A DNA stretch of 64,000 bases, from IMG/VR virus record IMGVR_UViG_3300040856_002293, positions 6,805-70,804 of that record; one strand, given 5' to 3'. Source of the stretch: a virus. A model generated the notes under the pieces. That model did no database searches. It was given only the letters and a program-made list of their open reading frames with translations, and was not told the origin of the DNA. The translations under genes and the position numbers were made by a program. This document shows, piece by piece, positions 1,780 to 15,093 of this stretch (its first letter is position 1; the number at the start of each line of letters is the position of its first letter).

Positions 1780-2049
1780 ATGAATAACAATACTAATAAA
1801 CCCCAATACAAAGTACATAATATATCTACACCCCCAGATATAAATGAACAATGGTATATGGTAAGAGAAACAACCTCAGATAATCCTACAGATAATAACC
1901 TAAAACCAACCAATAACCTAAAGGCTATTACCATAATGGTTACACATAACTTTCGTAAGGAACTTAAAAAAGAACTATCCATAAGAGATATAACTATAAG
2001 AGACTACATAATAAACCTAATAAAAGAAGACTTAGGTATCACAGAATAA
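1780..2049 (+). CDS. small DNA-binding protein (ribbon-helix-helix-like C-terminus)
   Basis: 'ITIMVTHNFRKELKKELSIRDITIRDYIINLIKEDL' strand-helix-helix pattern. Confidence 0.55.
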   Translation: MNNNTNKPQYKVHNISTPPDINEQWYMVRETTSDNPTDNNLKPTNNLKAITIMVTHNFRKELKKELSIRDITIRDYIINLIKEDLGITE

Positions 2050-2442
2050 ATATTAAAGTGTCTATCAATCAATTAAGTTAATCAAACAACACTACACAGC
2101 ACCAGCTCCTCCCCCCTAACAGGAGGGGATGGAGCATTGTTCATAACATATAAAGATAAGCCTAAACCCCACTATATACAAAGGTATATACCATAGGGAA
2201 AGGAAGCAAATGTAGTTATGTGTAACTATGTGGAGATATGTGGAAAAGAGTGTCTATCAAGATTGACATATGATCGTTGGGGAGGGTAGGTGTATTTGGG
2301 ACTTTTTCATTCACAGACTTATTTTTTCTGGAGGAAAATTAATCCCTTCCTCCCTTCCCCCAAATAATATTTGGCAAGGGGTATAGGTTAAGACAAATTA
2401 AATTTGGTTAGGTAAATTATTTAAAAAAAAGTACAGACAGAG

Positions 2443-2474
2443 TTTGGATAATTGGGGAGGATGGTGTATATTTG
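2443..2474 (+). promoter_or_regulatory. Bacteroidota-type promoter upstream of a non-coding structured region
   Basis: TTTG at 2443 and TATATTTG at 2467-2474. Confidence 0.55.
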
Positions 2475-2785
2475 TGTTGTCAATGGGAGGGGATGATAAC
2501 CTTCCCGAACGAAAAGCGAAAACCGATTAAAGAGCCGTTTACCCTGGAGGGGGGTCTGTTTACTTCAGTCTCCAACAAAGAAGTTTCCTATTCTCCCCCT
2601 CCGTTCTATTACTCGTTGGGGGGGGAGTGTTATAATCTGATACCTTAAGGATTGTGGCAACTTAGCTCTCCTCCCTATTTTAGTTGGCACATCTTGTACG
2701 CCAGTACAGTCTGCATATTTTAAGTTTTATAGTTAACAATGATTGGTAAAGGGAGGGCAATAGCTCTCCCTTTCTTTTTAGAGGA

Positions 2786-2832
2786 CTTATAAGGATGTTA
2801 CTCGCCCGGTAATATGATTTCGTGTTTGACCC
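2786..2832. repeat. 47-bp bipartite element, copy 1
   Basis: CTTATAAGGAT-gttactcgCCCGGtaatatg-ATTTCGTGTTTGACCC. Confidence 0.95.
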
Positions 2833-2899
2833 CCTCTCCCTAATTGGGGTAGGTAGGATTGGCAGGATTGATAGGTGGGTTACAAACTTATATAGAGGA

Positions 2900-2946
2900 C
2901 TTATAAGGATGTTACTCACCCGGCAATATGATTTCGTGTTTGACCC
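2900..2946. repeat. 47-bp bipartite element, copy 2
   Basis: CTTATAAGGAT-gttactcaCCCGGcaatatg-ATTTCGTGTTTGACCC. Confidence 0.95.
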
Positions 2947-3106
2947 CCTGGGGGTGGGTGGGGTTAGATCCCCACCGGTGTTTCCCTTTTCGAGAGTATT
3001 TTTTCTTTGATCTATGAGTCTTTGCTGTCATCTTTTTTGATGTATGATGATGTGCTTCTCCCATAGATATGTTGTCAAATTTGTACTTTCTTTTGCTTGT
3101 TTTCAT
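2912..3106 (-). CDS. small basic protein
   Basis: K/H/R-rich ORF (KKKYSRKGKH); minus-strand promoter TTTG..TAAATTTG at about 3129-3162; C-terminus runs into element copy 2. Confidence 0.6.
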   Translation of the reverse strand: MKTSKRKYKFDNISMGEAHHHTSKKMTAKTHRSKKKYSRKGKHRWGSNPTHPQGVKHEIILPGE

Positions 3107-3200
3107 ATCTCTTGTTTTAAATAACTATGCAAATTTAATACTTATTTTTTATTTACCAAATTTTTATAGATATTTTTTTTAAAAAAAAGTTGGGAAGATG

Positions 3201-3232
3201 TTTGAATAATATTTCAGATCGTTGTATACTTG
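3201..3232 (+). promoter_or_regulatory. early promoter (Bacteroidota type, one mismatch)
   Basis: TTTG 3201 and TATACTTG 3225-3232. Confidence 0.6.
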
Positions 3233-3261
3233 CACCATCGTTAACAACAAAATCAAAAATT

Positions 3262-3549
3262 ATGACAAAGACAGAGATGTGTTCATTGGTAGATTTAAAC
3301 AAACTTATCTACAATTTTACCGAGATTATTCCTTCCCTAAAGGAGCAGTACCTTCACTTCCATTATGATATATCTACGGATACGATATCTCTTTTGGAGA
3401 TTAATGGTGGAAAGCCTATGGAGGGGGATGATATGTCTATAAGGTTTTCCGAGGAGGGTGATTTATATGAGATTACTGTAACTGGGGATAAGTCCTTTTG
3501 TAATACGGTAGGTGATGTATTGAATCATATAGAGAATTGGTTTGCATAA
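3262..3549 (+). CDS. early hypothetical protein
   Basis: in-frame ATG at 3262 after promoter and A-rich leader (the track's 3190 start overlaps the promoter). Confidence 0.75.
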   Translation: MTKTEMCSLVDLNKLIYNFTEIIPSLKEQYLHFHYDISTDTISLLEINGGKPMEGDDMSIRFSEEGDLYEITVTGDKSFCNTVGDVLNHIENWFA

Positions 3550-3617
3550 TAACTTGTTTTATATCTGGAATTGGTGATGAACCTCTCCCCAGCTTTTGGT
3601 GGAGGGGTTCTTTTTTA

Positions 3618-3664
3618 CTTATAAGGATATAGTATACCCGGAAATGTGATTTCGTGTTTGCCCC
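3618..3664. repeat. 47-bp bipartite element, copy 3
   Basis: CTTATAAGGAT-atagtataCCCGGaaatgtg-ATTTCGTGTTTG; follows a terminator-like hairpin and T-tract. Confidence 0.95.
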
Positions 3665-3790
3665 CCCCCCCTGGGGGTGGGGTGGGGTTAAATCCCCACC
3701 GGTGTCCCTGTTGACAGATCTTCCCCTACTATCAAAGTTATTATACTATATATAAGGTGTAACTTTTTCACTAAAAAAGTTATGGTAGGA

Positions 3791-3822
3791 TTTGGATAAT
3801 TAGGAAAGTCGTTTTATATTTG
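3791..3822 (+). promoter_or_regulatory. early promoter
   Basis: TTTG 3791 and TATATTTG 3815-3822. Confidence 0.75.
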
Positions 3823-3852
3823 CATCATTGTTAAACTTAAAAACTTAAGATT

Positions 3853-4236
3853 ATGGGATTTTTTTCTTGGAAAACACAAGACACAGACAAAAGCATTGCA
3901 AATGCTTATTCAGTAGAAAATACCTTTACAGTATGTATGGTAGATGACAAAGGTAACATTTGGAAGGAAAGGAATTATGAGGGGTATGGTGAGTTTGGAG
4001 GGAAGGATTACTATGAGTTACTTGCTGAAATGAATGGGGTAACTATGGATAAGTCTTTGAAGAATTACACAGAGTTGATGAGAAGTAAGGGTATTAATAT
4101 GGCTTTCAAAGATAATAGTAGTGGGGAGTATTCAAAAGATATTAAGTATCCTAATTTAGTTGAGAATCCACAGAATTGGGAATATGAAGAATCATCTCCA
4201 AAGATTTGTGAATGTCAAGGTTACTTTTACGAGTAG
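3853..4236 (+). CDS. early hypothetical protein (MGFFSW type)
   Basis: ORF after promoter and leader; YEGYGEFGGKDYY motif. Confidence 0.85.
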   Translation: MGFFSWKTQDTDKSIANAYSVENTFTVCMVDDKGNIWKERNYEGYGEFGGKDYYELLAEMNGVTMDKSLKNYTELMRSKGINMAFKDNSSGEYSKDIKYPNLVENPQNWEYEESSPKICECQGYFYE

Positions 4237-4262
4237 AATAGTTTCGGACAGAGTTGTTAGAG

Positions 4263-4294
4263 CCTCTCCCCAGAAATCTGGGGAGGGGGTTTTT
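4263..4294 (+). terminator. rho-independent terminator (repeated at 5184 and 10399)
   Basis: CCTCTCCCCAGA-AA-TCTGGGGAGGGGG followed by a T-tract. Confidence 0.8.
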
Positions 4295-4295
4295 A

Positions 4296-4342
4296 CTTAT
4301 AAGGATATAGTATACCCGGAAATGTGATTTCGTGTTTGACCC
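4296..4342. repeat. 47-bp bipartite element, copy 4
   Basis: identical to copy 5. Confidence 0.95.
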
Positions 4343-4457
4343 CCTTCCTCCACCTAATCCCCCCCAAGATCTCCCAGATCAAACAGATCGTAGGATCTTC
4401 TCAAGGTTTTAACACAATTTGTTTATAAAAAAACTTTAAAAAAATATTAAAATATAT

Positions 4458-4489
4458 TTTGAATTGTGATAGATATTATATTATCTTTG
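4458..4489 (+). promoter_or_regulatory. early promoter
   Basis: TTTG 4458 and TATCTTTG 4482-4489. Confidence 0.75.
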
Positions 4490-4517
4490 ACCTATTGTTA
4501 ATAAAAAACTTAAAATT

Positions 4518-4781
4518 ATGAAAACTTTTGTAGTATTAATCCCGGCCGAAGGTTCATTAGTAGAGCCAAGAAATGTTTGTGAGTTCCTTGAAGGAACTAA
4601 ATATGACATAGGAGGTTCAGTTCAAGCCACCTCTACTGACGTACTGAAAGAGGTTCTGTCTGAATTCGATTTAAATGATTCGGATGGCATAGGAGTTCAT
4701 TCCCTTTCAACTTTTATGGATATGCTTAATAATGATGAATTCGATTTGAATGATTATTATTTTTCGTATGTATATGCTTAA
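4518..4781 (+). CDS. early hypothetical protein
   Basis: ORF after promoter. Confidence 0.8.
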   Translation: MKTFVVLIPAEGSLVEPRNVCEFLEGTKYDIGGSVQATSTDVLKEVLSEFDLNDSDGIGVHSLSTFMDMLNNDEFDLNDYYFSYVYA

Positions 4782-4790
4782 TAAAAACTT

Positions 4791-4814
4791 GGGGAGAGGT
4801 TAACACTTCTCCCC
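4791..4814 (+). repeat. intergenic hairpin type B (also 7040-7063, 7331-7354, 12113-12136)
   Basis: GGGGAGAGG(C/T)TAA....TTCTCCCC between co-transcribed genes, followed by an AAAAACTTAAAA leader. Confidence 0.8.
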
Positions 4815-4848
4815 TCATATTAAATTGTTAAACTTAAAAACTTAAAAA

Positions 4849-5151
4849 ATGGGATATTACACCAAATTTGAATTAGAAGTAGCCAATGGAGATGACCACA
4901 AGACTGATTACGAGCAGGAAATAAGAGAACTTTCTGATTACGAGTATTTGTTCGATGACGTAGTCAAATGGTATAACTTTGAAGAAGATATGAGAGCTTA
5001 CAGTAAGAACCACCCCAATACTGTCTTTGAATTAAGTGGGGAAGGAGAAGAAAGTGGTGACTTATGGAAAGCATATTTCCAAAATGGGAAAATGCAAATG
5101 TGTAGAGCCAAAGTTATTTACGATGAATTTGATGAGTCAAAATTATGCTAA
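4849..5151 (+). CDS. early hypothetical protein (MGYYT...FELSGEGEE type)
   Basis: ORF with motif seen commonly in phage early genes. Confidence 0.85.
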   Translation: MGYYTKFELEVANGDDHKTDYEQEIRELSDYEYLFDDVVKWYNFEEDMRAYSKNHPNTVFELSGEGEESGDLWKAYFQNGKMQMCRAKVIYDEFDESKLC

Positions 5152-5183
5152 TAAGTATAGTATTATTTTGGTAGAAGTTGATT

Positions 5184-5215
5184 CCTCTCCCCAGAAATCT
5201 GGGGAGGGGTTTTTT
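5184..5215 (+). terminator. rho-independent terminator
   Basis: same hairpin as at 4263, plus T-tract. Confidence 0.8.
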
Positions 5216-5216
5216 A

Positions 5217-5263
5217 CTTATAAGGATATAGTATACCCGGAAATGTGATTTCGTGTTTGACCC
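5217..5263. repeat. 47-bp bipartite element, copy 5
   Basis: followed by CCCACC..GGTGGG and GGGAC..GTCCC hairpins and CAGATC repeats. Confidence 0.95.
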
Positions 5264-5375
5264 ACCACCTCCGGTGGGGACCTGGGTCCCTGTACCATCC
5301 CCCCCCAACAGATCAGATCAGGTATTAGGGTGTATTTTCCGGGAATAACTTATTTTAAAAAAATATCAAAATAAA

Positions 5376-5408
5376 TTTGGAAATTTGATACATATTATAT
5401 TATCTTTG
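5376..5408 (+). promoter_or_regulatory. early promoter
   Basis: TTTG 5376 and TATCTTTG 5401-5408. Confidence 0.75.
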
Positions 5409-5438
5409 ACCCATTGTTAAACTTAAAAACTTTTTATT

Positions 5439-6095
5439 ATGCCAAATTGGTGCAGTAACACAGTCAAAATCGGTTGCACTAAAACCGAAACCCTTGAGGA
5501 GATTAAAAACTTAATATCTTCTCGCAAGGAAGACCAAGGAATATTCCAAGCAACAGTTGGATTGTTTCCAAAGGAATACTTATACGACAAGAGTATACCA
5601 TTTCAAAGCGATACTATCATTGATGAAAAGTATTTTGATTGGTATAACCACAACGTAAATGAGTATGGAACAAAGTGGGATGTTAATGAACAAGAACTTT
5701 CTATTACAGAAGGTCACGATTGCATTTATTTGTATTTTGATTCTGCTTGGAGTCCTCCAGTAGAATGGGCAAGTAAACTATCTTTTAAATTCGCTTGTCA
5801 AGTTGAAATAGAATTCTCCGAGCCGGGATGTGACTTTGGAGGAAAAAATTTCTACGATTGTGGGGATTTGGTGATGGAGGAAAATTATTCATACCTTGTG
5901 TGGTTGTTAAAGAGTGATAGAGATAAGTTTTGGAATGAGATAGAATATATTACTGAAGACTACGACAAGGAGCAATTTGAGGAGTATAGAAGTGGGGTAT
6001 TAGATGATATATCAGATTCTATTTCTACGGAAGATGCTAACTTTGCAGTCGGTGTTTTCAATGAAATCTACAATAATATGTTTGTAGAAGAGTAA
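5439..6095 (+). CDS. DUF1281/YubB (Api92-like) ferredoxin-fold protein
   Basis: MPNWCSN start; 'WY..NV.EYGTKWD', 'FDSAWSPP' and 'FSEPGCDFGG' motifs. Confidence 0.8.
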   Translation: MPNWCSNTVKIGCTKTETLEEIKNLISSRKEDQGIFQATVGLFPKEYLYDKSIPFQSDTIIDEKYFDWYNHNVNEYGTKWDVNEQELSITEGHDCIYLYFDSAWSPPVEWASKLSFKFACQVEIEFSEPGCDFGGKNFYDCGDLVMEENYSYLVWLLKSDRDKFWNEIEYITEDYDKEQFEEYRSGVLDDISDSISTEDANFAVGVFNEIYNNMFVEE

Positions 6096-6172
6096 ATTAA
6101 TATGGGGATATGTTTGTAAATTTCATACATATCCCTTATCTTTGATCCAATGTTAATTTAAACCATAAAATA

Positions 6173-6550
6173 ATGAAAAAATTATTAATAATAGCATTAG
6201 CAATATTTGGTCTTCAGACCGGGTATTCGCAAACAACATTAAAGAACCACAGAAATGGAGTTCTTTTAAAAGAACAGAGTAAATCTGTAAAAAAAGCAAA
6301 TTTGTTAACTTTTAAAAACTTTAAAGTTATGGAAACATTTAGAGCTGAAGTATTAGGAGTCGGAGAAAACGTATGGTCTTCTAATTCTATGGAATTTAAA
6401 ACCGAACAGGAAGCCAAAGATTGGCTGATCGGATTGAGCAGAAGATGGTTTGGTTGTGATGCCGGGAGAATTGTTAAAAACTCAACGGAAAGAAACCAAG
6501 AAGTAAATTGGGATACCGATACGTTTACTTTTAATTTCCGAAATCGGTAA
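6173..6550 (+). CDS. hypothetical protein with signal peptide; possible internal start at 6329
   Basis: MKKLLIIALAIFG signal-like N-terminus; promoter TATCTTTG at 6137. Confidence 0.7.
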   Translation: MKKLLIIALAIFGLQTGYSQTTLKNHRNGVLLKEQSKSVKKANLLTFKNFKVMETFRAEVLGVGENVWSSNSMEFKTEQEAKDWLIGLSRRWFGCDAGRIVKNSTERNQEVNWDTDTFTFNFRNR

Positions 6551-6555
6551 AAAAA

Positions 6556-6620
6556 TTGGGGAAAGTAAAAAAAAACTTTCCCCAAAATTTGGAATTGTCA
6601 GAGATATTATATTATATTTG
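6556..6620 (+). promoter_or_regulatory. stem-loop plus early promoter cassette, type A (also 7771-7832, 11087-11148, 11765-11826)
   Basis: GGGGAAAGT-An-CTTTCCCC hairpin abutting TTTGGAA.TGTCA.AGAT...TAT(A/C)TTTG. Confidence 0.85.
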
Positions 6621-6656
6621 TGTCATAATTATTTGATTAACTAAAAAACAAAAAAA

Positions 6657-6866
6657 ATGCAAGAGAGAGAAGAAATCATCCCAACAATGGAAACTGCAAT
6701 AGATAAATTGTTTTCTGGCGTAGTTGTACTATGTTTTGGATTTATGTTATTCATTATCGATTGGGTGGATATCCCGGTCCATATGAAATTAACATTATCT
6801 TTATTCCCAACAGTTGGGATAATCACTATTTTTTACTCATTACTAAAAACAGTTTTAAGAAGATGA
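6657..6866 (+). CDS. small two-helix membrane protein
   Basis: ORF after promoter; two hydrophobic segments. Confidence 0.75.
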   Translation: MQEREEIIPTMETAIDKLFSGVVVLCFGFMLFIIDWVDIPVHMKLTLSLFPTVGIITIFYSLLKTVLRR

Positions 6867-7033
6867 ACACTTTAGAAATGGCTTCAGATATGGCTGAAGA
6901 GAAAGTAAAAGAAGAATTTCCAAATCCATATACCCAGGGTCCAAATGGGGATTGGAGATTCACAGAAGAGGCTCAAGACCTCTTCAATTTTTGGTATGAG
7001 ATTTATTTGGATGAATTAACTTGTGCCGACTAA
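6863..7033 (+). CDS. early hypothetical protein
   Basis: ATG at 6863 overlaps the previous stop (ATGA); MNTLEMASDMAEE... Confidence 0.7.
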   Translation: MNTLEMASDMAEEKVKEEFPNPYTQGPNGDWRFTEEAQDLFNFWYEIYLDELTCAD

Positions 7034-7090
7034 AAATCCGGGGAGAGGCTAATGCTTCTCCCCAAATTTAAAAACTTAAAAACAAATAAT

Positions 7091-7324
7091 ATGAAAAATA
7101 AAATAAAAGAAAGTAAATTTTTGGAATGGTATTTCCAAAACCGGGATGACTTGATGATTTTTGCAGAAAGTATCCTATTTGAATTAAAGAAGTATGGCAA
7201 ATCTTCTTTAACTACAAAAAAATTATTTGATAAATGTGGATATATACCCTCCCACATTTGTGAGGATACCTCTGTGATTACGGAGTACGATCCCTCCGAG
7301 GTATACTTTTTAGAAAGGGTATAA
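7091..7324 (+). CDS. early hypothetical protein
   Basis: in-frame ATG 7091 after type-B hairpin and leader. Confidence 0.7.
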   Translation: MKNKIKESKFLEWYFQNRDDLMIFAESILFELKKYGKSSLTTKKLFDKCGYIPSHICEDTSVITEYDPSEVYFLERV

Positions 7325-7384
7325 AAAGCCGGGGAGAGGCTAATACTTCTCCCCAATATTAATAACTTAAAAAAACTTAAAATT

Positions 7385-7750
7385 ATGAACTTATTTAAAA
7401 GCACAATAAAGGAATTGACCTTTGAAAAAGACCCGGACAATAGGTGGTATATTGTACTGCCAGAATGGGAGGGAGATAGAGAGGATTTAGAAATGGTATC
7501 TGGAGCAGATACATTATTAGACCATTTATCAGAGGGTAAAGATTTGGTAACTTTAACAGTTGCAAAAATACCTTTGGAGATACCCAGACCAAGGGTAGTA
7601 TTAACTTACGACCATGAATATATGGGTGGAGCAGTCTATAGGACTCATCATATAGGTGGTGGCTCTTTGGATAATATGTCTGTATGGTTATGTAAGGTAA
7701 CCAAATTTGTATATGGTGGAGTAATGCCTCGAACACTATCCATACAATAA
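7385..7750 (+). CDS. DUF6717-like protein
   Basis: 'RWYIVLPEWEG...LEMVSGADTLLD...WLC.VT.FVYG' motif. Confidence 0.7.
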   Translation: MNLFKSTIKELTFEKDPDNRWYIVLPEWEGDREDLEMVSGADTLLDHLSEGKDLVTLTVAKIPLEIPRPRVVLTYDHEYMGGAVYRTHHIGGGSLDNMSVWLCKVTKFVYGGVMPRTLSIQ

Positions 7751-7864
7751 CCCGGTCTGATCAAAAATTAGGGGAAAGTAAAAAAAACTTTCCCCAATAT
7801 TTGGAAATGTCATAGATATTTTATTATCTTTGACCTATTGTTAAACATTTAAAAACTTAAAAAA

Positions 7865-8701
7865 ATGAGACAATTATCAATGCAAGAAATGATCACTTCT
7901 GCACCCGCAATAAATGCAGAAGCAAAACAAGAGACTTTAACCAAGAGGTTTAAGTTTGTTTCAACAAAAGACGTTATAGAAGACGTTACAAAATTAGGGT
8001 GGACTCCTGTCTCTGCAAAGCAGAGAAAGAACAAAGACGTAAACCCACTATATGCACAACATATGGTGGAGTTTAGAATAGACCATCCAATTGCGATATC
8101 CCACAAGGATGATTTAATCTATCCCCAGATTAGTCTTGTTAATGCCCATAATGGCAAATCTTCTTTTAGATTCTATGCCGGGTTATTTAGACTTGTTTGT
8201 TCTAATGGACTTGTTGTCCCGGTCCAAGTAGGTGGAGAATCTTTAGGGGATGGATTCAGAATTCGTCACGACTCCTATGATATCAAAGAGGTTAAATCTA
8301 CGATAGAAAAGTTAGTAAAAGGTATTCAAAAGAGTATGAAACCTATTTATGCTTTAAACGATAGAACCCTAACTGATAAAGAAAAGAGAAATCTTGCAAA
8401 AAGAGGACTCTCTATCAGAAATGAAATCAAGAGTAGTGATTTAAGGGAATTCTTAAATTCTATCCCAGATGAGACAGTTGATTCCATCCTAACCCCAAAA
8501 AGAGGTATGGACACAGGAAACAACGCTTGGAGAGTATTTAATACTGTTCAGGAGAGTTTAGTGGGTGGAGATTTCCAAAACTTTTTATTCGATAAAGAAT
8601 CAAATTTAAAGTTTAGGTCTGCAAGACCCTTGAGTGATATGTTTAAAACGCAGAAATTTAATATCAATTTATTAAAAGAAGCACAGTTATTGTTAAATTA
8701 G
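7865..8701 (+). CDS. DUF932/DUF945-family protein
   Basis: 'H.VEFR...LVNAHNG.SSF...AGLFRLVCSNGLVV...RH' and 'W.VFNTVQE' motifs. Confidence 0.85.
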   Translation: MRQLSMQEMITSAPAINAEAKQETLTKRFKFVSTKDVIEDVTKLGWTPVSAKQRKNKDVNPLYAQHMVEFRIDHPIAISHKDDLIYPQISLVNAHNGKSSFRFYAGLFRLVCSNGLVVPVQVGGESLGDGFRIRHDSYDIKEVKSTIEKLVKGIQKSMKPIYALNDRTLTDKEKRNLAKRGLSIRNEIKSSDLREFLNSIPDETVDSILTPKRGMDTGNNAWRVFNTVQESLVGGDFQNFLFDKESNLKFRSARPLSDMFKTQKFNINLLKEAQLLLN

Positions 8702-8752
8702 GTTATGTTGCCTCTCCCCAGATTTCCGGGGGGAGGCTTAAAAACAAATAAT

Positions 8753-8947
8753 ATGAAAGATAAAATAAAAGAAATAGTAGATAAGTATGGGGTATCTGAA
8801 CAGGATGCTAAATCTATCCTAAAGGAAAATTACGAGTTAGCATTAGACGTAGAGGATGGTATGTCAGATCACGCTTTAGAGATACTTTTAACTTATGAAT
8901 ATATGATATCAATTTTAGAAAACGAAAAAGATAATAACAATGGATGA
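8753..8947 (+). CDS. early hypothetical protein
   Basis: in-frame ATG 8753 after hairpin and leader. Confidence 0.7.
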   Translation: MKDKIKEIVDKYGVSEQDAKSILKENYELALDVEDGMSDHALEILLTYEYMISILENEKDNNNG

Positions 8948-9137
8948 TAGTAAAACTTTGAACGAACACATTCAGATGACTATGGAACAGTACGGTTTAG
9001 ATAAATTGACTGCTATTAATTTATTAATAGATAGATTCAATTTTGTATTAGACTTTTGTGCTGATTCTTACGATGACCCTAATTTAAAAAAGGAATTGGA
9101 AGATTCATTAAAAAAGTTAGAAGAACCCGGTAAATAG
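8940..9137 (+). CDS. early hypothetical protein
   Basis: ORF overlapping the end of the previous gene. Confidence 0.7.
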   Translation: MDDSKTLNEHIQMTMEQYGLDKLTAINLLIDRFNFVLDFCADSYDDPNLKKELEDSLKKLEEPGK

Positions 9138-9210
9138 TTAATTACTAAATTTGGAAATGTCAGAGATATTATATTATCTTTGACTCATTGTTAATAAAAA
9201 ACTTAAAGTT

Positions 9211-9462
9211 ATGGAAACTGAAAACGTAATCACATTAAAGCATCGTCTTGGGTTTATCCAATATACCCACGATGAGTTGTCAAAGGAATTGGATGACCTT
9301 GCATTTTTAAGAGATTCTTTTTTAGTTCTCTTAAATGAGGATTTAGCAAGAAGATCTGATCTACCTTTTGATAAAGAGACAGTCCTAAAATATACAAGAG
9401 AAATGTATAGAGAAGGCAATTGGAATCAAGAGTTAATAGATAAATTCTTTGACTTAAAATAG
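9211..9462 (+). CDS. early hypothetical protein
   Basis: ORF after promoter (TATCTTTG 9175-9182). Confidence 0.75.
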   Translation: METENVITLKHRLGFIQYTHDELSKELDDLAFLRDSFLVLLNEDLARRSDLPFDKETVLKYTREMYREGNWNQELIDKFFDLK

Positions 9463-9515
9463 AAAAATAGGGGTGGGTTTACCCATCCCTTATTTAAAAA
9501 CTAAAAAACAAAATA

Positions 9516-10370
9516 ATGATGAATGTATTATCCCTTTTTGATGGCATATCTGTAGGACAATATGCTTTAAACAAAACTAACCATACAATAGAAAATTATT
9601 ATGCATCTGAAATAGATTCATATGCACAATCAATAACCCGGTTTAACTTTCCCAATACAAAATTTTTGGGAGACGTAACCAAAGTATCTATGAAAGATAC
9701 ACCAATAGATTTATTAATAGGTGGCTCTCCTTGTCAAGGATTCAGTTTTGTTGGTAAACAATTAAACTTTGAGGATGATAGAAGTAAGTTATTCTTTGAG
9801 TTTGTTAGACTCTTGGAAGAGACCAACCCTAAATACTTTTTCCTTGAAAACGTAGTAATGAATAAAGATTCAATACAAGTCATATCTAATGCTTTAGGAG
9901 TTAATCCTATTAAACTCAATAGTGCTGATTTTTCAGCACAAAATAGACCAAGACTATATTGGACTAACATACCGTACAAAAACCCGGCAGAAGCCAATAC
10001 AGAGGTAATTAAAGATATATTGGATGAGGATGCAACGTTCTCAAATAAGTATCCTAATTTTATTGACCTACATTGGGGAGGAGAACCAAGAAAAAATAAA
10101 CTTAAATATTCTGATCAAAAAGCAAGGACATTAACTGCTACTATGTGGAAAGGACAGGTATGTACATTTGTCAGAAATAGACAAGAAGAGGTACATAAAT
10201 TTACACCAACAGAATGTGAAAGGTTACAAGGACTCCCAACCAACTATACTCAAAGAGGTATTGTAGATAATAAAGTAGTAGACATATCTAATACTCAACG
10301 ATATAAGACTTTAGGTAATAGTTGGAATGCTCCAACAGTAGAACAGTTCTTTAAGAACATAAAGATATAA
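9516..10370 (+). CDS. DNA (cytosine-5)-methyltransferase
   Basis: motif I SLFDGI, IV GGSPCQGFS, VI FFLENV, VIII QNRPR, IX TPTECERLQG, X LGNSW. Confidence 0.95.
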   Translation: MMNVLSLFDGISVGQYALNKTNHTIENYYASEIDSYAQSITRFNFPNTKFLGDVTKVSMKDTPIDLLIGGSPCQGFSFVGKQLNFEDDRSKLFFEFVRLLEETNPKYFFLENVVMNKDSIQVISNALGVNPIKLNSADFSAQNRPRLYWTNIPYKNPAEANTEVIKDILDEDATFSNKYPNFIDLHWGGEPRKNKLKYSDQKARTLTATMWKGQVCTFVRNRQEEVHKFTPTECERLQGLPTNYTQRGIVDNKVVDISNTQRYKTLGNSWNAPTVEQFFKNIKI

Positions 10371-10398
10371 TTTGCATTCTCATTGTTTTTGTTAATCA

Positions 10399-10430
10399 CC
10401 TCTCCCCAGATTTCTGGGGAGGGGTTTTTT
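10399..10430 (+). terminator. rho-independent terminator (loop inverted relative to 4263/5184)
   Basis: CCTCTCCCCAGATTTCTGGGGAGGGG plus T-tract. Confidence 0.8.
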
Positions 10431-10431
10431 A

Positions 10432-10478
10432 CTTATAAGGATATACATACAACATACCACTCATTTCGTGTTTGACCC
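10432..10478. repeat. 47-bp bipartite element, copy 6 (divergent spacer lacking CCCGG)
   Basis: CTTATAAGGAT-atacatacaacataccactc-ATTTCGTGTTTGACCC; spacer still 20 nt. Confidence 0.95.
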
Positions 10479-10656
10479 ACCACCACCGGAGGTGGGACCA
10501 GGGTCCCTGTGGTATGACTCCAACAGATCAGATCAGATCAGGTATTAGGGTGTATTTTCCGGGAATAAATTACTTTAAAAAAACATTAAAATATATTTGG
10601 AATTGTCAGAGATATTATATTATCTTTGACCCATTGTTAAACTTAAAAACAAAAAA

Positions 10657-11079
10657 ATGAGAAACAAATTTGAACAATCAGATAAAGCAATCGAATTTAT
10701 TAAAGGTGGTAATGCCACCTTTACAATCTGTTCAGCAAAGAACAGATATACCTATAAAGTTATTAAGACTCATTTCGATGAGTCAAAATACTTTGTTATG
10801 CTCTTAACCGGGAGTGATAACAATAATGATTTCTCTTATGTTGGGATGCTATTTCCTAACAGAGATAAAATCACTCTAACTAAGAAAAGTGTAATGACAG
10901 ATCAGTCATTGCCTGTAGTTGCATTCAACTACACATATAAAAGACTCCTAAATGGGTTTATACCTAAAGGAGTGTCTATATACCACGAGGGTCGTTGTGG
11001 CTCTTGTGGTAGAAAGTTAACAGTACCTGAATCTATTGAAAGTGGGTTCGGACCACATTGTTTATCGAAGTTAGGATAA
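10657..11079 (+). CDS. DUF6011-like zinc-finger protein
   Basis: C-terminal 'HEGRCGSCGRKLTVPESIESGFGPHC'; promoter TATCTTTG at 10621. Confidence 0.8.
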   Translation: MRNKFEQSDKAIEFIKGGNATFTICSAKNRYTYKVIKTHFDESKYFVMLLTGSDNNNDFSYVGMLFPNRDKITLTKKSVMTDQSLPVVAFNYTYKRLLNGFIPKGVSIYHEGRCGSCGRKLTVPESIESGFGPHCLSKLG

Positions 11080-11175
11080 AAAAATTGGGGAAAGTAAAAA
11101 AAACTTTCCCCGAAATTTGGAATTGTCAGAGATAATATATTATCTTTGTGTCATCATTCACTAAAAAACAAAAAA

Positions 11176-11757
11176 ATGAGAGAAAAAGAATTTAAGAAAA
11201 TTACAGTAGAAGAGCTCAAGGAGTTCTTAAAAACTGTAAAGCATTACAGAAGAGTTGAGTTGCTAACAACAACTCCACTAAAACCAAAAATGGTCGTTAA
11301 GGACCGGAAAACAAAAGAGCCTAATCCGTTATTAAACGGATATGTAAAAACTCTCTTAAATGTAGCCTCTTTAGGCACAACCAAAGAGGGTACAACGGCT
11401 TACAGAGTCCGTTCTGAAAACAACGGACACGGGGCAGAAGAAAGTGCTTTCAAAGGCACATATGTAACGTACATTTCCCCGGTTTTGGCGAAGCATAAAA
11501 CCAAAGAACAGTATTATTTTTCCTATGAGGTAAAACTCAATGACGATGATGGAAAAGTAGAAAATGTAAACGTAAAGGAGAAGACATATCTTCTCCCAGA
11601 TTTCACCAAATTTGCCGGGAAAATCGGTGACGTTTGGAACAAAGTCTCTAAAAATCCAAGAGGAGTTGATATGCGAAGAGTTAAATTAGAGAACATTAAT
11701 AGAATATCTATTGATAATCACAGATTTCAGATTATTGATTCTGTGAATGCTATCTAA
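11176..11757 (+). CDS. early hypothetical protein
   Basis: in-frame ATG 11176 after type-A promoter cassette. Confidence 0.8.
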   Translation: MREKEFKKITVEELKEFLKTVKHYRRVELLTTTPLKPKMVVKDRKTKEPNPLLNGYVKTLLNVASLGTTKEGTTAYRVRSENNGHGAEESAFKGTYVTYISPVLAKHKTKEQYYFSYEVKLNDDDGKVENVNVKEKTYLLPDFTKFAGKIGDVWNKVSKNPRGVDMRRVKLENINRISIDNHRFQIIDSVNAI

Positions 11758-11860
11758 AAAAATTGGGGAAAGTAAAAAAAACTTTCCCCTAAATTTGGAA
11801 TTGTCAGAGATATTATATTATCTTTGTGTCATCATTGATTAATTAACTAAAACAAAAAAA

Positions 11861-12106
11861 ATGAGTGTAATAGCGAAAGATTGGGTGTGGTTCGAACACC
11901 CAGAGACAAACGAGTATATCGAATTCGAGGTTGAATTTGAGTATGATTTCGGACAATATGCATCTTATGATTCGCCTTCAACGGCTGATCAAGTCTACAT
12001 TGTGAAAGTACATTGTGACAATATCCCAGAATGGATAACAGAGGAGATGATATATGAGAAAACAACAGATATTGCAGTTGACTATGTCAACTCAATGTAC
12101 GACTAA
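11861..12106 (+). CDS. early acidic hypothetical protein
   Basis: ORF after type-A promoter cassette. Confidence 0.8.
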   Translation: MSVIAKDWVWFEHPETNEYIEFEVEFEYDFGQYASYDSPSTADQVYIVKVHCDNIPEWITEEMIYEKTTDIAVDYVNSMYD

Positions 12107-12166
12107 AAAGCCGGGGAGAGGCTAATGCTTCTCCCCAAATTTAAAAACTTAAAAACTTAAAAAAAA

Positions 12167-12595
12167 ATGAAAAAAGTAAAAACTTATATTATCGACCAAG
12201 TGGTCAGAGGAAGAAACAATGATAGGGAAATAAATTTCAGATTCCCTATAATAGTAAAGTCAAATAACATTGGTGGAAACGGAGAACCAATGTATTACCA
12301 CCTAACCGGGTGGCAATGTGATCAAATAGATTATAAAGTACAACAAGTAGCCAATAAGATTAAAGAATTAATTGGCGAAGATATGTATGTTCAGTCTGAT
12401 CTCCTAATCGCTCAAGACCCAATCTGGGAGATTGAGCCAGACAGATTAGAACAAGTATTAGAGGAGTATGGTAAAGGAGGTAAGTTTAATGAATTCTACT
12501 GTCTTACCCTATGGGATGGAGGTAGTTCTGGAGGATGGGTGATCCCCAGAAATAAAATTATTGACATTATAAAAGAGTCAATAATAGAAATATAA
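12167..12595 (+). CDS. early hypothetical protein
   Basis: ORF after type-B hairpin and leader. Confidence 0.8.
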   Translation: MKKVKTYIIDQVVRGRNNDREINFRFPIIVKSNNIGGNGEPMYYHLTGWQCDQIDYKVQQVANKIKELIGEDMYVQSDLLIAQDPIWEIEPDRLEQVLEEYGKGGKFNEFYCLTLWDGGSSGGWVIPRNKIIDIIKESIIEI

Positions 12596-12622
12596 AAAAA
12601 GGGACTATATGTCCCTTTTTTT
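12595..12622. terminator. bidirectional-type terminator
   Basis: AAAAAAGGGAC-tatat-GTCCCTTTTTTT. Confidence 0.8.
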
Positions 12623-12626
12623 ATTC

Positions 12627-12673
12627 CTTATAAGGATACTATATACCCGGCAATATGGTTTCGTGTTTGACCC
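12627..12673. repeat. 47-bp bipartite element, copy 7
   Basis: CTTATAAGGAT-actatataCCCGGcaatatg-GTTTCGTGTTTGACCC plus the same hairpins as copy 5. Confidence 0.95.
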
Positions 12674-12859
12674 ACCACCTCCGGTGGGGACCTGGGTCCC
12701 ACCCACAGCAGATCAAACAGATCGTTTTATTATCCCAGAATAATAAACAATTTGTTTATAAAAAAAACTTTAAAAAAATATTAAAATATCTTTGGAAATT
12801 TGATACATAATATATTATCTTTGTGTCATCATTATTTGATTAACTAAAAACAATAAAAT

Positions 12860-13594
12860 ATGCAAGCTCAAAAAGTAGTTTTTCTTTCTGATGACAGAAA
12901 AGTCCTAAACGTTGTACGTTTAGGCGATACGACAAATTCAAAAATCGCTTCGCCTAAAGAGGTGATTTTGCAAACATATCATTTCGATATGTCACAAATC
13001 AAATTTGTTGCCAATGGTGGCAAAGGCACTAACTTAAAAACCGGGTTTCTTAGTCCTCAATTTACTTCTAATAATTGTATGTCTTGTCCAATGAGGTTTA
13101 AAGGTTGCTATACTTTTCATCCTGATCAAAGTAAAGGTAATTTGTCTATGATCCGTTCAATCGTCCGAGTTAACCCAAATTTAGAATTTAGTACATACAA
13201 TAGTGAGATTGAAAGTAAACTCATTGAGTTTATTAACCATAAGAAATTTACAAAGAAGTATATAAGGTTCGGCACATATGGTTGCCCTACAAATATGCCT
13301 ATTCAAGCGGTAGAACTTTTGGCTACAAAAGTAGGCAAGTGGACCGGGTATAGCCACGAGTGGCACAACCCGGCCAAATCTGAATATTTTAAATATTTTA
13401 TGGCTTCGAGCCATAGCGACAAAAGTATGTTTAATTCAAGTTTAGCAAATGCCTACGGTTTCCGTACTTTTGAAACCGATAGCACTAACGGTATCTATTG
13501 CCCTTCATATAGGGGAGTCACCTGTGCCAATTGTGGACTATGCTCCGGGACTGTCGGCAAAGGTAAAACCAACATAGTAATTAACAAGCACTAA
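12860..13594 (+). CDS. GP88-like Cys-cluster (radical-SAM-like) protein
   Basis: 'CMSCP....GCY', 'IRFGTYG', 'WTGYSH', 'FMAS', C-terminal 'CP...TCANCGLC'; promoter TATCTTTG at 12816. Confidence 0.65.
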   Translation: MQAQKVVFLSDDRKVLNVVRLGDTTNSKIASPKEVILQTYHFDMSQIKFVANGGKGTNLKTGFLSPQFTSNNCMSCPMRFKGCYTFHPDQSKGNLSMIRSIVRVNPNLEFSTYNSEIESKLIEFINHKKFTKKYIRFGTYGCPTNMPIQAVELLATKVGKWTGYSHEWHNPAKSEYFKYFMASSHSDKSMFNSSLANAYGFRTFETDSTNGIYCPSYRGVTCANCGLCSGTVGKGKTNIVINKH

Positions 13595-13808
13595 AATAGT
13601 ATTGGGGGTCGGATCAACCGATCCCCGATTATTATTTTGTTAGGGGGGGGGGGTTTCTTGGCGATAGGGCAAAGCCACCGGAGAAAATCACCCACACCTG
13701 TTTTCATATCGAGGTCAATTTTTTTACCCATAGAAGAGTGTCTGTTAACAGTATCAAAAAGTTTGGGAGAGGGGAGTACACTTATGAATTCATTTCCCAA
13801 ATCCAGAC

Positions 13809-13816
13809 TATTTATA
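13809..13816 (+). promoter_or_regulatory. putative late-promoter motif TATTTATA (also 14443, 19755, 21810, 26020, 27020, 36524, 38823, 49112, 60272; minus strand 32282)
   Basis: 8-mer recurring shortly upstream of starts of structural and leader-bearing genes. Confidence 0.7.
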
Positions 13817-13876
13817 GAAAACACAACGCACTAAAAAATTCCGGAGAAAAAATTTTTTTACCAAGAAAGTAGTATT

Positions 13877-14440
13877 ATGCCAGCCCCACGAAAGAACATT
13901 GACCCATTATTAACTAAAACAAGAGCTGCTAAACCTATCGTAGATGCTATTTTAAATCTAAATCAGATAGAGTTTTATTATTCAGGACCAACCAAGCCTT
14001 CCACTTTTGTAAAAGGACAGAGAAAGCCTGTTAAAAGGGGTAGAAGGGTAAAGGGTAAACCTGTTGCCATAGGGATATCAAAAAGGGATAGACTTTTAAT
14101 TAGAATACATGTTGAACCACCCTCAGTATCGTTAAGAGGTTTTGCAGACCATGGATGGAGAACCTTTATGTTAAGTCGTATGAGTAGTGTAAAGGTATTA
14201 AAGGACAAAAATTTCTCTTTATCTATACCAAGATATAATGGAGGAGGTCCTGATGAAGCCTTTAAAAGAACTTTACTATTTATAACACCAGAGTCGGTTA
14301 AGGAGAATTCTAAAACAGCATTTGAGATGAGAAGGGAAGAAATTCTTCGCAAGAAGCAAGAGAAAGAATTTAAGAAAATTGCAAAGCAAAGAAAAGAGAA
14401 GGCTCGAAAAGATTTGCGGGAGAAGAACAGAAAACTTTAG
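13877..14440 (+). CDS. WYL-domain-like protein
   Basis: 'IEFYY...GRR...PVAIG...LIR...GWRTFMLSRM' resembles a WYL (SH3-like) fold; basic C-terminal helix. Confidence 0.6.
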   Translation: MPAPRKNIDPLLTKTRAAKPIVDAILNLNQIEFYYSGPTKPSTFVKGQRKPVKRGRRVKGKPVAIGISKRDRLLIRIHVEPPSVSLRGFADHGWRTFMLSRMSSVKVLKDKNFSLSIPRYNGGGPDEAFKRTLLFITPESVKENSKTAFEMRREEILRKKQEKEFKKIAKQRKEKARKDLREKNRKL

Positions 14441-14463
14441 TATATTTATATAAAACATTTACA

Positions 14464-14727
14464 ATGAATATAGAAGAAAGTATCTTATCCAATTTAAAGA
14501 ATTTTTATTCGGATAATGATGATATCAATAGTGCTATATCGGATGAAGATTTTGAAAGTGATATGGCACAGTCTCAACTAAAGAGTATTGTCAAGAATGC
14601 GTATATGATTCATAAGATGATACAGGGTAGGAAGGATTTACCTTCCTGGGTTCAGTCTAAGTTGACAAAGGCTTCGGACTATATGACAGCAGTTAATGAT
14701 TATTTGGATGGTGAAAAAGGTTTATAA
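14464..14727 (+). CDS. conserved large-phage hypothetical protein
   Basis: 'MAQSQL...DLPSWVQSKLTKASDY' motif; TATTTATA upstream. Confidence 0.8.
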   Translation: MNIEESILSNLKNFYSDNDDINSAISDEDFESDMAQSQLKSIVKNAYMIHKMIQGRKDLPSWVQSKLTKASDYMTAVNDYLDGEKGL

Positions 14728-15089: not shown

Positions 15090-15093
15090 TATT

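What the first reader, a model, noticed from the sequence alone, without database searches (positions are those of the whole stretch)
2805..13845. CCSGG (CCCGG/CCGGG) strongly enriched only in the early cassette region, including inside coding sequences
Seen (manual count, approximate): about 41 CCGG in this 11 kb, of which about 33 are CCSGG. The following 50 kb has about 15 CCGG (about 9 CCSGG), so the density differs more than tenfold in an AT-rich genome. Many sites lie in unrelated ORFs (for example 4541, 5823, 6219, 6462, 6773, 7141, 7432, 8178, 8218, 9126, 9637, 9983, 10808, 11478, 11615, 12306, 13041, 13344, 13369, 13545), so duplicated intergenic DNA does not explain them. They are spaced fairly regularly, a few hundred bp apart. 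Established: phages usually avoid such palindromes, and CCSGG/CCNGG are classical C5-methyltransferase targets. Inference: the motif is selected here, perhaps as a methylation mark, as binding sites that coat or silence the early region, or as decoys for a host defence. A C5 methyltransferase is encoded inside the region.
Basis: partly seen in the sequence, partly recalled or inferred. Interest (0 to 1): 0.76.

Follow-up and report, generated by a model that had tools for sequence, protein, structure and literature searches.

The report
Dense CCSGG array in phage early genes
An 11-kb block of early genes in an uncultured marine phage carries the five-letter DNA word CCCGG/CCGGG about ten times more often than expected, written into unrelated genes by silent codon choices and evenly spaced, which is the opposite of the usual phage habit of avoiding such words and points to an unknown DNA-level function, probably tied to cytosine methylation.

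Summary

- **Not composition.** In the block's 21 called genes a synonymous-codon shuffle expects 3.7 CCSGG and 22 are seen (0 of 1000 shuffles reach that).
- **No rival word.** No other 5-mer comes close: z is 9.9 against 3.7 for the next.
- **Silent recoding.** 22 of 89 silent opportunities are used, against 9 of 720 elsewhere.
- **Anatomy.** Both orientations are equal and all codon frames are used. Spacing is more even than chance. CCCGGG never occurs.
- **Where.** The island coincides with a block of 12 conserved Bacteroidota-type promoters in front of genes.
- **Methylation link.** The link is indirect. An orphan DNMT3-like C5 methyltransferase lies in the block. Elsewhere CCGG is avoided except inside CCSGG.
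- **Relatives.** A 77% (nt) identical copy of the methyltransferase gene and a relative whose 244-aa early protein is 50% identical lack the sites.
- **Analogue.** Cultured pelagiphages HTVC120P and HTVC134P show a similar GGSCC excess.

The function is unresolved. The closest known case is the methyltransferase-linked iterated palindromes of cyanobacteria. Methylation has not been measured.

The parts
2805..13549 (.). CCSGG island: 33 sites (16 CCCGG, 17 CCGGG on the + strand) at 2805, 2919, 3637, 4315, 4541, 5236, 5339, 5823, 6219, 6462, 6773, 7038, 7141, 7329, 7432, 7751, 8178, 8218, 8726, 9126, 9637, 9983, 10559, 10808, 11478, 11615, 12111, 12306, 12646, 13041, 13344, 13369, 13545
   Evidence: Counts are and contexts. 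The shuffle tests are. Silent-opportunity use is.
2443..12823 (+). Early promoter block. There are 14 + strand matches to TTTG-N17-23-TAnnTTTG. Twelve lie 25-45 nt upstream of an ATG, at 2443, 3791, 4458, 5376, 6113, 6588, 7800, 9150, 10596, 11116, 11794 and 12791. Most share the core TTTGGAAWTGTCAGAGATATTATATTATCTTTG.
   Evidence: 14 of the contig's 16 + strand matches lie in this block. The consensus itself (Bacteroidota sigma-A type) is recalled, not taken from a call.
9516..10370 (+). Orphan C5 cytosine methyltransferase, 284 aa, with a DNMT3-like compact architecture. It is the candidate writer of CCSGG and contains two CCSGG itself (9637, 9983).
   Evidence: PF00145 E 1e-40. TIGR00675 E 1e-41. 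It aligns full length to the DNMT3A/3B catalytic domain, E 2.7e-25. Its target-recognition stretch is shared only with L002.
2779..12682 (+). Seven copies of a bipartite intergenic element (CTTATAAGGAT ... TTTCGTGTTTG). Six carry CCCGG at a fixed place in the spacer (2805, 2919, 3637, 4315, 5236, 12646). The copy at 10399-10487 has none.
   Evidence: Families D2 and D3; contexts.
7027..12181 (+). Terminator-like hairpin modules that begin with CCGGGGAGAGG (7038, 7329, 12111). A fourth copy at 4778 lacks the site. The hairpin at 8706-8739 has CCGGGG where its four sister copies have CTGGGG or TTGGTGG.
   Evidence: Families D5 and D7.
12860..13594 (+). Gene for a 244-aa Cys-rich protein, with four CCSGG, three of them at residue pairs identical in the relative L027, which writes them with other codons.
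   Evidence: the window has ACC GGG, ACC GGG, AAC CCG GCC and TCC GGG. L027 has ACT GGA, ACG GGA, AAT CCT and AGC GGA. The AF2 model has pLDDT 92.5 and no PDB fold match at E <= 0.001.
24656..26014 (+). Second C5 methyltransferase, outside the island. It is an alternative candidate writer of CCSGG.
   Evidence: PF00145 E 2.2e-44. Its specificity is unknown.

Best explanation
The block 2443-13845 is the phage's early gene cluster, driven by host-type promoters. Across it the pentamer CCCGG/CCGGG is kept at about 3 per kb by a force that acts on double-stranded DNA. That force ignores strand, reading frame and gene, and rewrites silent codon positions.

I take CCSGG to be the word that this phage protects by cytosine-5 methylation. 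The most likely writer is the DNMT3-like orphan methyltransferase in the middle of the block. I take the array to be a positively maintained set of methylation sites, so that no stretch of the early DNA is more than about 700 bp from a mark.

Shown: the enrichment, its DNA-level nature, the even spacing, the coincidence with the promoter block, and the exemption of CCSGG from CCGG avoidance elsewhere.

Inferred: that the sites are methylated, which enzyme does it, and what the marks do. My guess for their role is a cis-acting epigenetic tag on the DNA that is expressed first, read by a phage or host protein.
For: (1) The enrichment survives a synonymous shuffle: 22 against 3.7, reached by 0 of 1000 shuffles. 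It is unique among all 5-mers.
(2) 22 of 89 silent opportunities are used in the block, against 9 of 720 elsewhere. In the 244-aa gene, three of the four sites lie at residue pairs identical in L027, which encodes them with other codons.
(3) Orientation is 16:17 and frames are 5/10/7, so the target is not RNA or protein.
(4) Spacing is under-dispersed: CV 0.59, largest gap 718 bp, P about 0.0007.
(5) A site replaces CTGGGG in one terminator hairpin.
(6) Outside the block, CCGG not embedded in CCSGG is depleted: 8 against 20.2, and 0 of 300 shuffles are as low. CCSGG itself is not depleted: 9 against 7.4.
(7) A complete C5 methyltransferase lies in the block. Its target-recognition stretch differs from that of homologues in phages that carry another enriched word, GGSCC.
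(8) CCSGG methylation occurs in marine prokaryotes (PMC8919816, passages read).
Against: - No methylation data exist and no call shows the enzyme's specificity. A DNMT3-like enzyme with a very short recognition stretch could target CpG or something else.
- The enzyme acts in trans, yet the other 60 kb of the contig is not enriched: 9 against 7.4.
- L002 has the same recognition-stretch type at 78% protein identity but has no CCGG in its 1 kb.
- Pelagiphage HTVC120P keeps 46 GGSCC but gave no tblastn match (E <= 1e-3) to the window's methyltransferase and has none annotated.
- The complete 66-kb phage record G001 has a GGCC/GATC island and no PF00145 gene.
- The block also differs from the rest in GATC (33 of 35 expected, against 6-13 of 28-33). 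Its separate history, rather than a function, could therefore explain why the island stops where it does.
Confidence: 0.4

Rival explanations
1. The array is a by-product, not a signal. A methylation-coupled repair or gene-conversion bias, like the ratchet proposed for cyanobacterial HIP sequences or very-short-patch repair, converts near-cognate words into CCSGG until a saturating density is reached. The island is limited to the early block because that block is a separately evolving, shuffling pool of cassettes that has lived longer with the methyltransferase than the core genome has.
For: - Elhai's model predicts accumulation in all frames and saturation at a roughly even spacing (PMC4390886, abstract and section 3.4 read).
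- Relatives carry the cassettes in different arrangements: contigs join across 3610-5210, 7858-10651 and 10650-11861.
- The block has its own palindrome profile (GATC, ACGT and TCGA less avoided, AGCT more).
- In HTVC134P the GGSCC excess covers early, replication and structural genes and is missing from one 9.4-kb block. HTVC120P lacks it in a further 5.4 kb. That looks like module history.
- A 77% (nt) identical copy of the methyltransferase gene (L002) and a relative whose 244-aa protein is 50% identical (L027) lack the sites.
Against: - No Vsr (PF03852) is found in the contig, which is only about 43% complete.
- The expected precursor words are not depleted: CCCAG/CTGGG is 13 against 7.8 and CCGAG/CTCGG is 5 against 6.3.
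- Codon usage of the block is not foreign: RSCU r is 0.93-0.96 to the rest, against 0.94-0.99 among the rest.
- The block shares the total absence of CTAG and CGCG with the rest.
- VSP-type bias in E. coli gives only a modest excess (recalled, not from a call), not tenfold.
Confidence: 0.25
2. The sites are an array of binding or cutting sites for a protein other than a methyltransferase. Candidates are a virion-packaged or early phage protein, or a host protein. It would coat, silence, nick or recombine the early block. The methyltransferase is there only to shield these necessary sites from CCGG- or CCSGG-cutting restriction enzymes.
For: - The spacing is even and independent of orientation.
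- The motif sits at a fixed place in 6 of 7 bipartite regulatory elements.
- HTVC120P keeps its GGSCC array although no methyltransferase gene was found in it, while its sister HTVC134P has one. This fits 'array first, methylase as shield'.
- An earlier unchecked note (e1-6195418) proposes packaged, injected proteins in this phage.
Against: - Five base pairs are few for a specific binder.
- No DNA-binding or nuclease family was found among the 20 block proteins scanned.
- No candidate reader is identified.
Confidence: 0.2
3. The motif is a Chi-like or primase-type single-strand signal. An asymmetric pentamer is read on one strand, to stop exonuclease degradation of the entering DNA or to prime lagging-strand synthesis.
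For: - CCCGG and CCGGG are reverse complements, so 'CCSGG' could be one asymmetric word seen on either strand.
- CCCGGG, which would hold both orientations at once, never occurs: 0 of 33 sites have C at -1.
Against: There is no orientation bias in the block (16:17, interleaved) or in HTVC120P (26:20, with no switch along the genome). Both kinds of signal should be polar with respect to the entering end or the replication fork.
Confidence: 0.05
4. The island is chance, local composition, or duplicated DNA.
For: - About 12-13 of the 33 sites are in repeated intergenic modules.
- The block is 3 points richer in GC.
- A maximal-order Markov model, which already contains the enriched 4-mers, gives only 33 against 23.2.
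Against: - Roughly 20 sites have unique coding contexts in unrelated genes.
- 0 of 1000 shuffles reach the observed count.
- No other 5-mer behaves so.
- CpG in general is not the cause: CCGG is 12.7-fold denser in the block, while the other NCGN contexts are 0-2.2-fold.
Confidence: 0.02

Closest known systems
Highly iterated palindromes (HIP1 GCGATCGC and alternate HIPs) of cyanobacteria and their cognate orphan methyltransferases (Elhai 2015, PMC4390886; abstract and section 3.4 read)
   Same: - A short GC-rich palindromic word lies far above expectation, inside genes.
- The density is near one per kb or higher.
- A different word is enriched in different lineages, and the word tracks which methyltransferase is present.
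- It is debated whether the word is selected or is a by-product of repair.
   Different: - HIPs are genome-wide in cellular genomes. This array is confined to 11 kb of a phage and is about three times denser.
- Here the cognate enzyme is only presumed.
- The word is a 5-bp pseudo-palindrome, and its 6-bp full palindrome is absent.
GGSCC excess in T7-like pelagiphages HTVC120P and HTVC134P (GenBank MH598807.1 and OR420744.1; found here, and I found no description of it in print in the searches)
   Same: - It is a GC-only pentamer with central S: 46 and 44 copies against about 11 expected. In HTVC120P genes it is 37 against 5.4 by shuffle.
- Both orientations occur and GGGCCC is absent.
- HTVC134P encodes a homologue of the window's methyltransferase, with a different recognition stretch, next to a distant homologue of the 244-aa protein.
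   Different: - It covers about three quarters of the genome, not only the early genes.
- HTVC120P has the array, but no methyltransferase gene was found in it.
- The host is SAR11, not Bacteroidota.
Restriction-site avoidance in phage genomes (e.g. Rusinov et al. 2018, PMC6286503; passages read)
   Same: The same contig shows classic avoidance: CTAG 0 of about 208 expected, CGCG 0, GGCC 6 of about 46, GATC depleted.
   Different: CCSGG in the early block goes the opposite way. The passages I read in that paper do not report local enrichment.
Dcm/Vsr very-short-patch repair bias towards CCWGG in E. coli (recalled, not read here)
   Same: A methyltransferase-linked repair system can raise the frequency of its own target word.
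   Different: No Vsr gene is found. The precursor words are not depleted. The size of the effect here is far larger.

Membership tests
HIP-type methyltransferase-associated iterated palindrome | A short GC-rich palindromic word is many-fold above expectation, inside coding sequence and in all frames. | tested here: met
   22 against 3.7 in genes, frames 5/10/7. The word is a pseudo-palindrome.
HIP-type methyltransferase-associated iterated palindrome | A methyltransferase specific for the word is encoded in the same genome. | tested here: inconclusive
   Two PF00145 enzymes are present, but the specificity of neither is known. Indirect support comes from the exemption of CCSGG from CCGG avoidance.
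HIP-type methyltransferase-associated iterated palindrome | The word is distributed genome-wide. | tested here: not met
   33 sites lie in 11 kb and 9 in the other 60 kb, which is at expectation.
Recognition word of a CCSGG restriction-modification system (BcnI/NciI type) | The word is identical to the enzyme's site. | tested here: met
   BcnI recognises CCSGG (PMC3203586, abstract seen in the listing). 33 of 41 CCGG in the block are CCSGG.
Recognition word of a CCSGG restriction-modification system (BcnI/NciI type) | The sites are methylated in the virion, or a cognate endonuclease is present. | not testable with these tools
   Only assembled contigs of public runs were available. No endonuclease family was seen among the 20 block proteins scanned.
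Chi-like recombination or anti-exonuclease signal | Orientation bias relative to the DNA end or replication direction. | tested here: not met
   16 CCCGG and 17 CCGGG, interleaved.
Vsr/very-short-patch-repair-driven enrichment | A Vsr endonuclease gene is present and the T-containing precursor words are depleted. | tested here: not met
   No PF03852 match at E <= 1 in the contig, which is about 43% complete. CCCAG/CTGGG is 13 against 7.8 and CCGAG/CTCGG is 5 against 6.3.
C5 cytosine DNA methyltransferase (PF00145), for the gene 9516-10370 | Full-length match to the family, including the catalytic motifs. | tested here: met
   PF00145 E 1e-40 over residues 2-283. DNMT3A catalytic domain, residues 3-283, E 2.7e-25.

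The most novel reading that the evidence does not exclude
Some marine phages write a dense, evenly spaced array of one GC-only pentamer into their DNA by silent recoding: CCSGG here, GGSCC in HTVC120P/134P-type pelagiphages. They use it as a cis-acting epigenetic code. The sites are methylated by a phage DNMT3-like enzyme in the previous host. On the incoming genome they mark the block to be expressed first, or shield it from a host system. This would be a phage counterpart of CpG-island or GATC-cluster logic, and it has not been described.
Probability: 0.25. Interest if true: 0.85.

Novelty: new variant of a known kind. Interest (0 to 1): 0.72.

Why it matters
Phage genomes are known for avoiding restriction-type palindromes. 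A block that instead accumulates one such word, using a quarter of all silent opportunities, implies a strong DNA-level force that has not been described.

- **If the sites are methylation marks with a function**, this would be a new layer of phage gene regulation or counter-defence. It would also give a reason why so many phages carry orphan C5 methyltransferases.
- **If they are a repair by-product**, phages would offer a small, fast-evolving system to test the long-standing question of how iterated palindromes such as HIP1 arise.

The same signal in cultured pelagiphages, with a sister pair in which a methyltransferase gene is annotated in one (HTVC134P) and not found in the other (HTVC120P), makes the question testable at the bench.

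Tried and rejected
- **Near-identical phage records:** megablast of 5400-13800 and 30000-42000 against the phage collection found nothing.
- **The bipartite element as a pattern:** a scan of viral contigs gave 0 matches.
- **DUF932 protein in viral contigs:** no relative was found.
- **Read laying on 1-20000 with four runs:** it showed mosaic relatives. Only 40 of 1,462 differences were printed, so per-site conservation of CCSGG could not be read. I draw no conclusion from it on conservation or habitat.
- **Habitats of the runs:** not used as evidence, except that related DNA exists in several studies.
- **Conservation in L001 and L003:** 6 of 6 coding sites are kept at 94-97% identity. This is too few to be significant; about 0.2 is expected by chance.
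- **CpG methylation in general:** rejected as the cause, because only the CCGG context is strongly enriched.
- **The 244-aa Cys-rich protein as a T:G mismatch glycosylase or Vsr analogue:** the AF2 model is confident (pLDDT 92.5) but has no PDB match at E <= 0.001, so the idea gained no support.
- **A general property of Bacteroidota phages:** rejected. Flavobacterium phage immuto has 14 CCSGG in 50 kb, which is about the expectation.
- **Alternation of orientation in HTVC120P:** 28 runs against 23.6 expected by my hand count, not significant.
- **Maximal-order Markov model:** it gives only 33 against 23.2. It absorbs the enriched 4-mers, so it does not test the enrichment.
- **Literature:** searches for local enrichment of restriction-type words in phages (and passages) found no description. 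They cover only the held library, and supplementary files were not opened.

Full report
**What the window is.** The window is 64 kb of a 70,804-bp virus contig. It is an IMG/VR record, classed as linear, and CheckV estimates it at about 43% complete. GC is 31-34%. Nearly all genes lie on the + strand (95 of 102 crude ORF calls). Few proteins match known phage families; the matches are baseplate wedge and tail fibre. Promoter-like sequences of the Bacteroidota sigma-A type (TTTG ... TAnnTTTG; consensus recalled) point to a Bacteroidota host.

**The observation.**
- The 6.8 kb upstream of the window adds one CCGG and no CCSGG.
- From base composition the block expects 9.5 CCGG and 3.2 CCSGG. The rest expects 36.3 and 11.4 and has 17 and 9.
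- So the contrast is mainly a true tenfold excess of the pentamer in the block, plus a twofold deficit of CCGG elsewhere.

**Is it more than composition?** Yes, by four tests.
- I shuffled synonymous codons within each of 21 called genes in the block. This keeps protein sequence and codon usage. CCSGG is 22 against 3.7 +/- 1.7, and 0 of 1000 shuffles reach it. CCGG is 24 against 8.4.
- In the 79 other genes CCSGG is 9 against 7.4.
- Among all strand-collapsed 5-mers, CCCGG/CCGGG stands alone in the block at z 9.9. The next is z 3.7. The rest of the genome has no such outlier.
- Counting every place where silent changes alone could write CCSGG, the block uses 22 of 89 (24.7%) and the rest 9 of 720 (1.3%).

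CpG in general is not the cause. CCGG is 12.7-fold denser in the block, while the other NCGN contexts are 0-2.2-fold.

One caveat applies to the counts. About 12-13 of the 33 sites lie in repeated intergenic modules, and two of my 22 'coding' sites (8726, 10559) are in modules overlapped by crude ORF calls. Roughly 20 sites have unique contexts in unrelated genes.

**Anatomy of the sites.**
- They occupy all three codon frames (5/10/7). They are built from rare codons such as ACC GGG, GCC GGG, TCC GGG, AAC CCG and ACC CGG.
- In the 244-aa gene, three of the four sites fall at residue pairs (T-G, T-G, S-G) that are identical in the 50%-identical relative L027, and the fourth overlaps a conserved N-P. 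L027 writes these as ACT GGA, ACG GGA, AGC GGA and AAT CCT.
- Orientation is balanced and interleaved (16 CCCGG, 17 CCGGG). This argues against an RNA-level or polar single-strand signal.
- No site is preceded by C, so CCCGGG never occurs. That is 0 of 33, against about 17% C in the background, and 0 in the whole contig.
- Spacing is more even than chance. The mean gap is 336 bp and CV is 0.59 against 0.97. The largest gap is 718 bp against a simulated mean of 1,364. Both have P about 0.0007. With 21 coding sites only, CV is 0.68 and P is 0.04.
- The motif is also part of the regulatory modules. Six of seven bipartite elements carry CCCGG at a fixed place, and three of four terminator modules start with CCGGGG. 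One hairpin has CCGGGG where its four sister copies have CTGGGG or TTGGTGG.

**Where the island lies.** Fourteen of the contig's 16 + strand matches to the promoter pattern lie between 2443 and 12791. Twelve of them sit 25-45 nt upstream of a start codon, and most share one 33-nt core. The first CCSGG is 360 bp after the first promoter. The last is in the last gene of this series. The block's genes include DUF932, DUF6011, a DUF1281_C/Api92-like domain, DUF6717 and a C5 methyltransferase. The island is therefore the host-promoter-driven early block. That it is 'early' is inferred from the promoters and has not been measured.

**The methylation link.**
- The gene 9516-10370 is a complete C5 methyltransferase (PF00145 E 1e-40). 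Over its full length it aligns with the catalytic domain of DNMT3A/3B (E 2.7e-25), so its target-recognition stretch is very short.
- That stretch is shared only with L002 (60-73% identity per 30-residue bin). In 13 other homologues it is 7-47% identical, while the catalytic core is 33-93%.
- No call gives its specificity.
- One indirect argument supports a CCSGG-specific protection acting on the whole genome. In the 79 genes outside the block, CCGG that is not part of CCSGG is 8 against 20.2, and 0 of 300 shuffles are as low. CCSGG itself is 9 against 7.4.
- CCSGG methylation does occur in marine prokaryotes (PMC8919816, passages read).

**Relatives.**
- Near relatives keep the coding sites. 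L001 (94% identity) keeps 4 of 4 and L003 (97%) keeps 2 of 2. The one intergenic site lies in a replaced module. This is not significant.
- L002, a 77%-identical copy of the methyltransferase gene, has neither of its two sites and no CCGG in 1 kb.
- L027 encodes a 50%-identical 244-aa protein. It has 0 CCGG in 20.7 kb, and no PF00145 gene in its 85.5-kb record.
- Of 26 metagenome loci with a homologous methyltransferase, only L001 and L003 (the same lineage) and the GC-richer L022 have more CCSGG than expected.
- Flavobacterium phage immuto shows nothing unusual.
- The array is therefore young and specific to this lineage.

**An unexpected parallel.**
- Loci with a homologous methyltransferase but another recognition stretch (L008, L015, L018, L026, L029, L031) have almost no CCGG. 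They carry GGCC at 1.5- to 6-fold excess, nearly always as GGGCC or GGCCC.
- They belong to T7-like pelagiphages (RNA polymerase 98-99% identical to HTVC120P/134P/309P).
- Complete HTVC120P has 46 GGSCC against 10.9 expected. In annotated genes it has 37 against 5.4 by shuffle (z 14). It has 0 GGWCC, 0 GATC and 0 GGGCCC.
- HTVC134P has 44 GGSCC. HTVC109P, which grows on the same host strain, has 0 GGCC and 0 CCGG.
- HTVC134P encodes the methylase (gp5). HTVC120P has no methylase annotated and gave no tblastn match to the window's enzyme.
- In these phages the array runs through early, replication and structural genes. It is missing from a 9.4-kb block in HTVC134P and from a further 5.4 kb in HTVC120P. 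Spacing is under-dispersed in HTVC134P (CV 0.65, P 0.007) but not in HTVC120P.
- A complete 66-kb phage record without any PF00145 gene also has a 6-kb island rich in GGCC and GATC.

**What it most likely is.** I consider the following settled. A DNA-level force, acting on the duplex, maintains CCSGG across the early block.

I consider the following likely at about 0.4. The word is the phage's methylated word, and the array is kept because marks are needed every few hundred bp on this DNA.

The main rival, at about 0.25, is that the array is a by-product of methylation-coupled biased repair or gene conversion, as Elhai proposed for HIP sequences (PMC4390886). On that view the island's limits reflect the separate history of a shuffling cassette pool.
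- **In favour of that rival:** the block has its own palindrome profile (GATC 33 of 35 expected, against 6-13 of 28-33 elsewhere). Relatives show cassette rearrangements. The block-wise pattern in the pelagiphages also fits.
- **Against it:** no Vsr is found. The precursor words are not depleted. Codon usage of the block is ordinary.

A third reading, at about 0.2, is that the sites serve another protein and the methylase only shields them. HTVC120P, which keeps its array although I found no methylase gene in it, fits this reading best.

Chi-like or primase-like signals are disfavoured by the lack of polarity. Chance or composition is excluded.

**Novelty.** Methyltransferase-linked iterated palindromes are known in cyanobacterial chromosomes. 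I found no description of a dense array of a restriction-type word confined to one region of a phage, or of the pelagiphage GGSCC excess. I rate it a new variant of a known kind. The mechanism is open, and there is a cultured system in which to test it.

Noticed in passing
L033 (MH598807.1, whole genome) and L036 (OR420744.1): Pelagiphages HTVC120P and HTVC134P carry 46 and 44 GGSCC against about 11 expected. In HTVC120P genes it is 37 against 5.4 by shuffle. GGWCC is absent or nearly so (0 and 3), and GATC and GGGCCC are absent. HTVC109P on the same host strain has 0 GGCC and 0 CCGG.
   Followed up: partly
whole contig (window 1-64000 plus 6.8 kb upstream): CTAG is absent (0 against about 208 expected) and so is CGCG (0 against about 46). 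GGCC is 6 against about 46. GATC is threefold depleted outside the early block but at expectation inside it (33 of 35).
   Followed up: partly
window 12860-13594; homologues in L015 2334-3065 and in gp3 of L036 and L033: This 244-aa protein has eight conserved cysteines (weak DUF7227 hit, below Pfam's cut-off). It gives a confident AF2 model (pLDDT 92.5) with no PDB fold match at E <= 0.001. In T7-like pelagiphages a distant homologue lies two genes upstream of the methyltransferase (gp3, gp4, gp5 of HTVC134P).
   Followed up: partly
window 9516-10370: The early-block C5 methyltransferase aligns over its full 284 aa with the catalytic domain of animal DNMT3A/3B (E 2.7e-25). That is better than with M.HhaI or M.HaeIII, which match only the N-terminal half.
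   Followed up: partly
window 2805-13845, coding sequences: Several words are strongly depleted in the block's genes: ACATC/GATGT (4 against 15.9), ACATG/CATGT (0 against 10.8), ACCAG/CTGGT (0 against 9.2) and CTCAG/CTGAG (0 against 9.4).
   Followed up: no
G001 (L038-L041), about 30.6-36.3 kb: This complete 66-kb virus record has no C5 methyltransferase gene. It has a 6-kb island around a divergent gene junction, with 30 GGCC (16 in the densest 3-kb bin against 0-6 per bin outside the island) and, in that same bin, 23 GATC against 1-9 elsewhere.
   Followed up: partly
window 2210-13449, - strand: All 7 - strand matches to the loose promoter pattern TTTG-N17-23-TAnnTTTG in the contig also fall inside or at the edge of the early block. 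They may be chance in T-rich antisense sequence or may be antisense promoters.
   Followed up: no
window 3610-11861 (joints seen in runs X5 and X6): Contigs of related phages join across whole cassettes (3610 to 5210, 7858 to 10651, 10650 to 11861). The early block therefore differs in gene content between close relatives.
   Followed up: no
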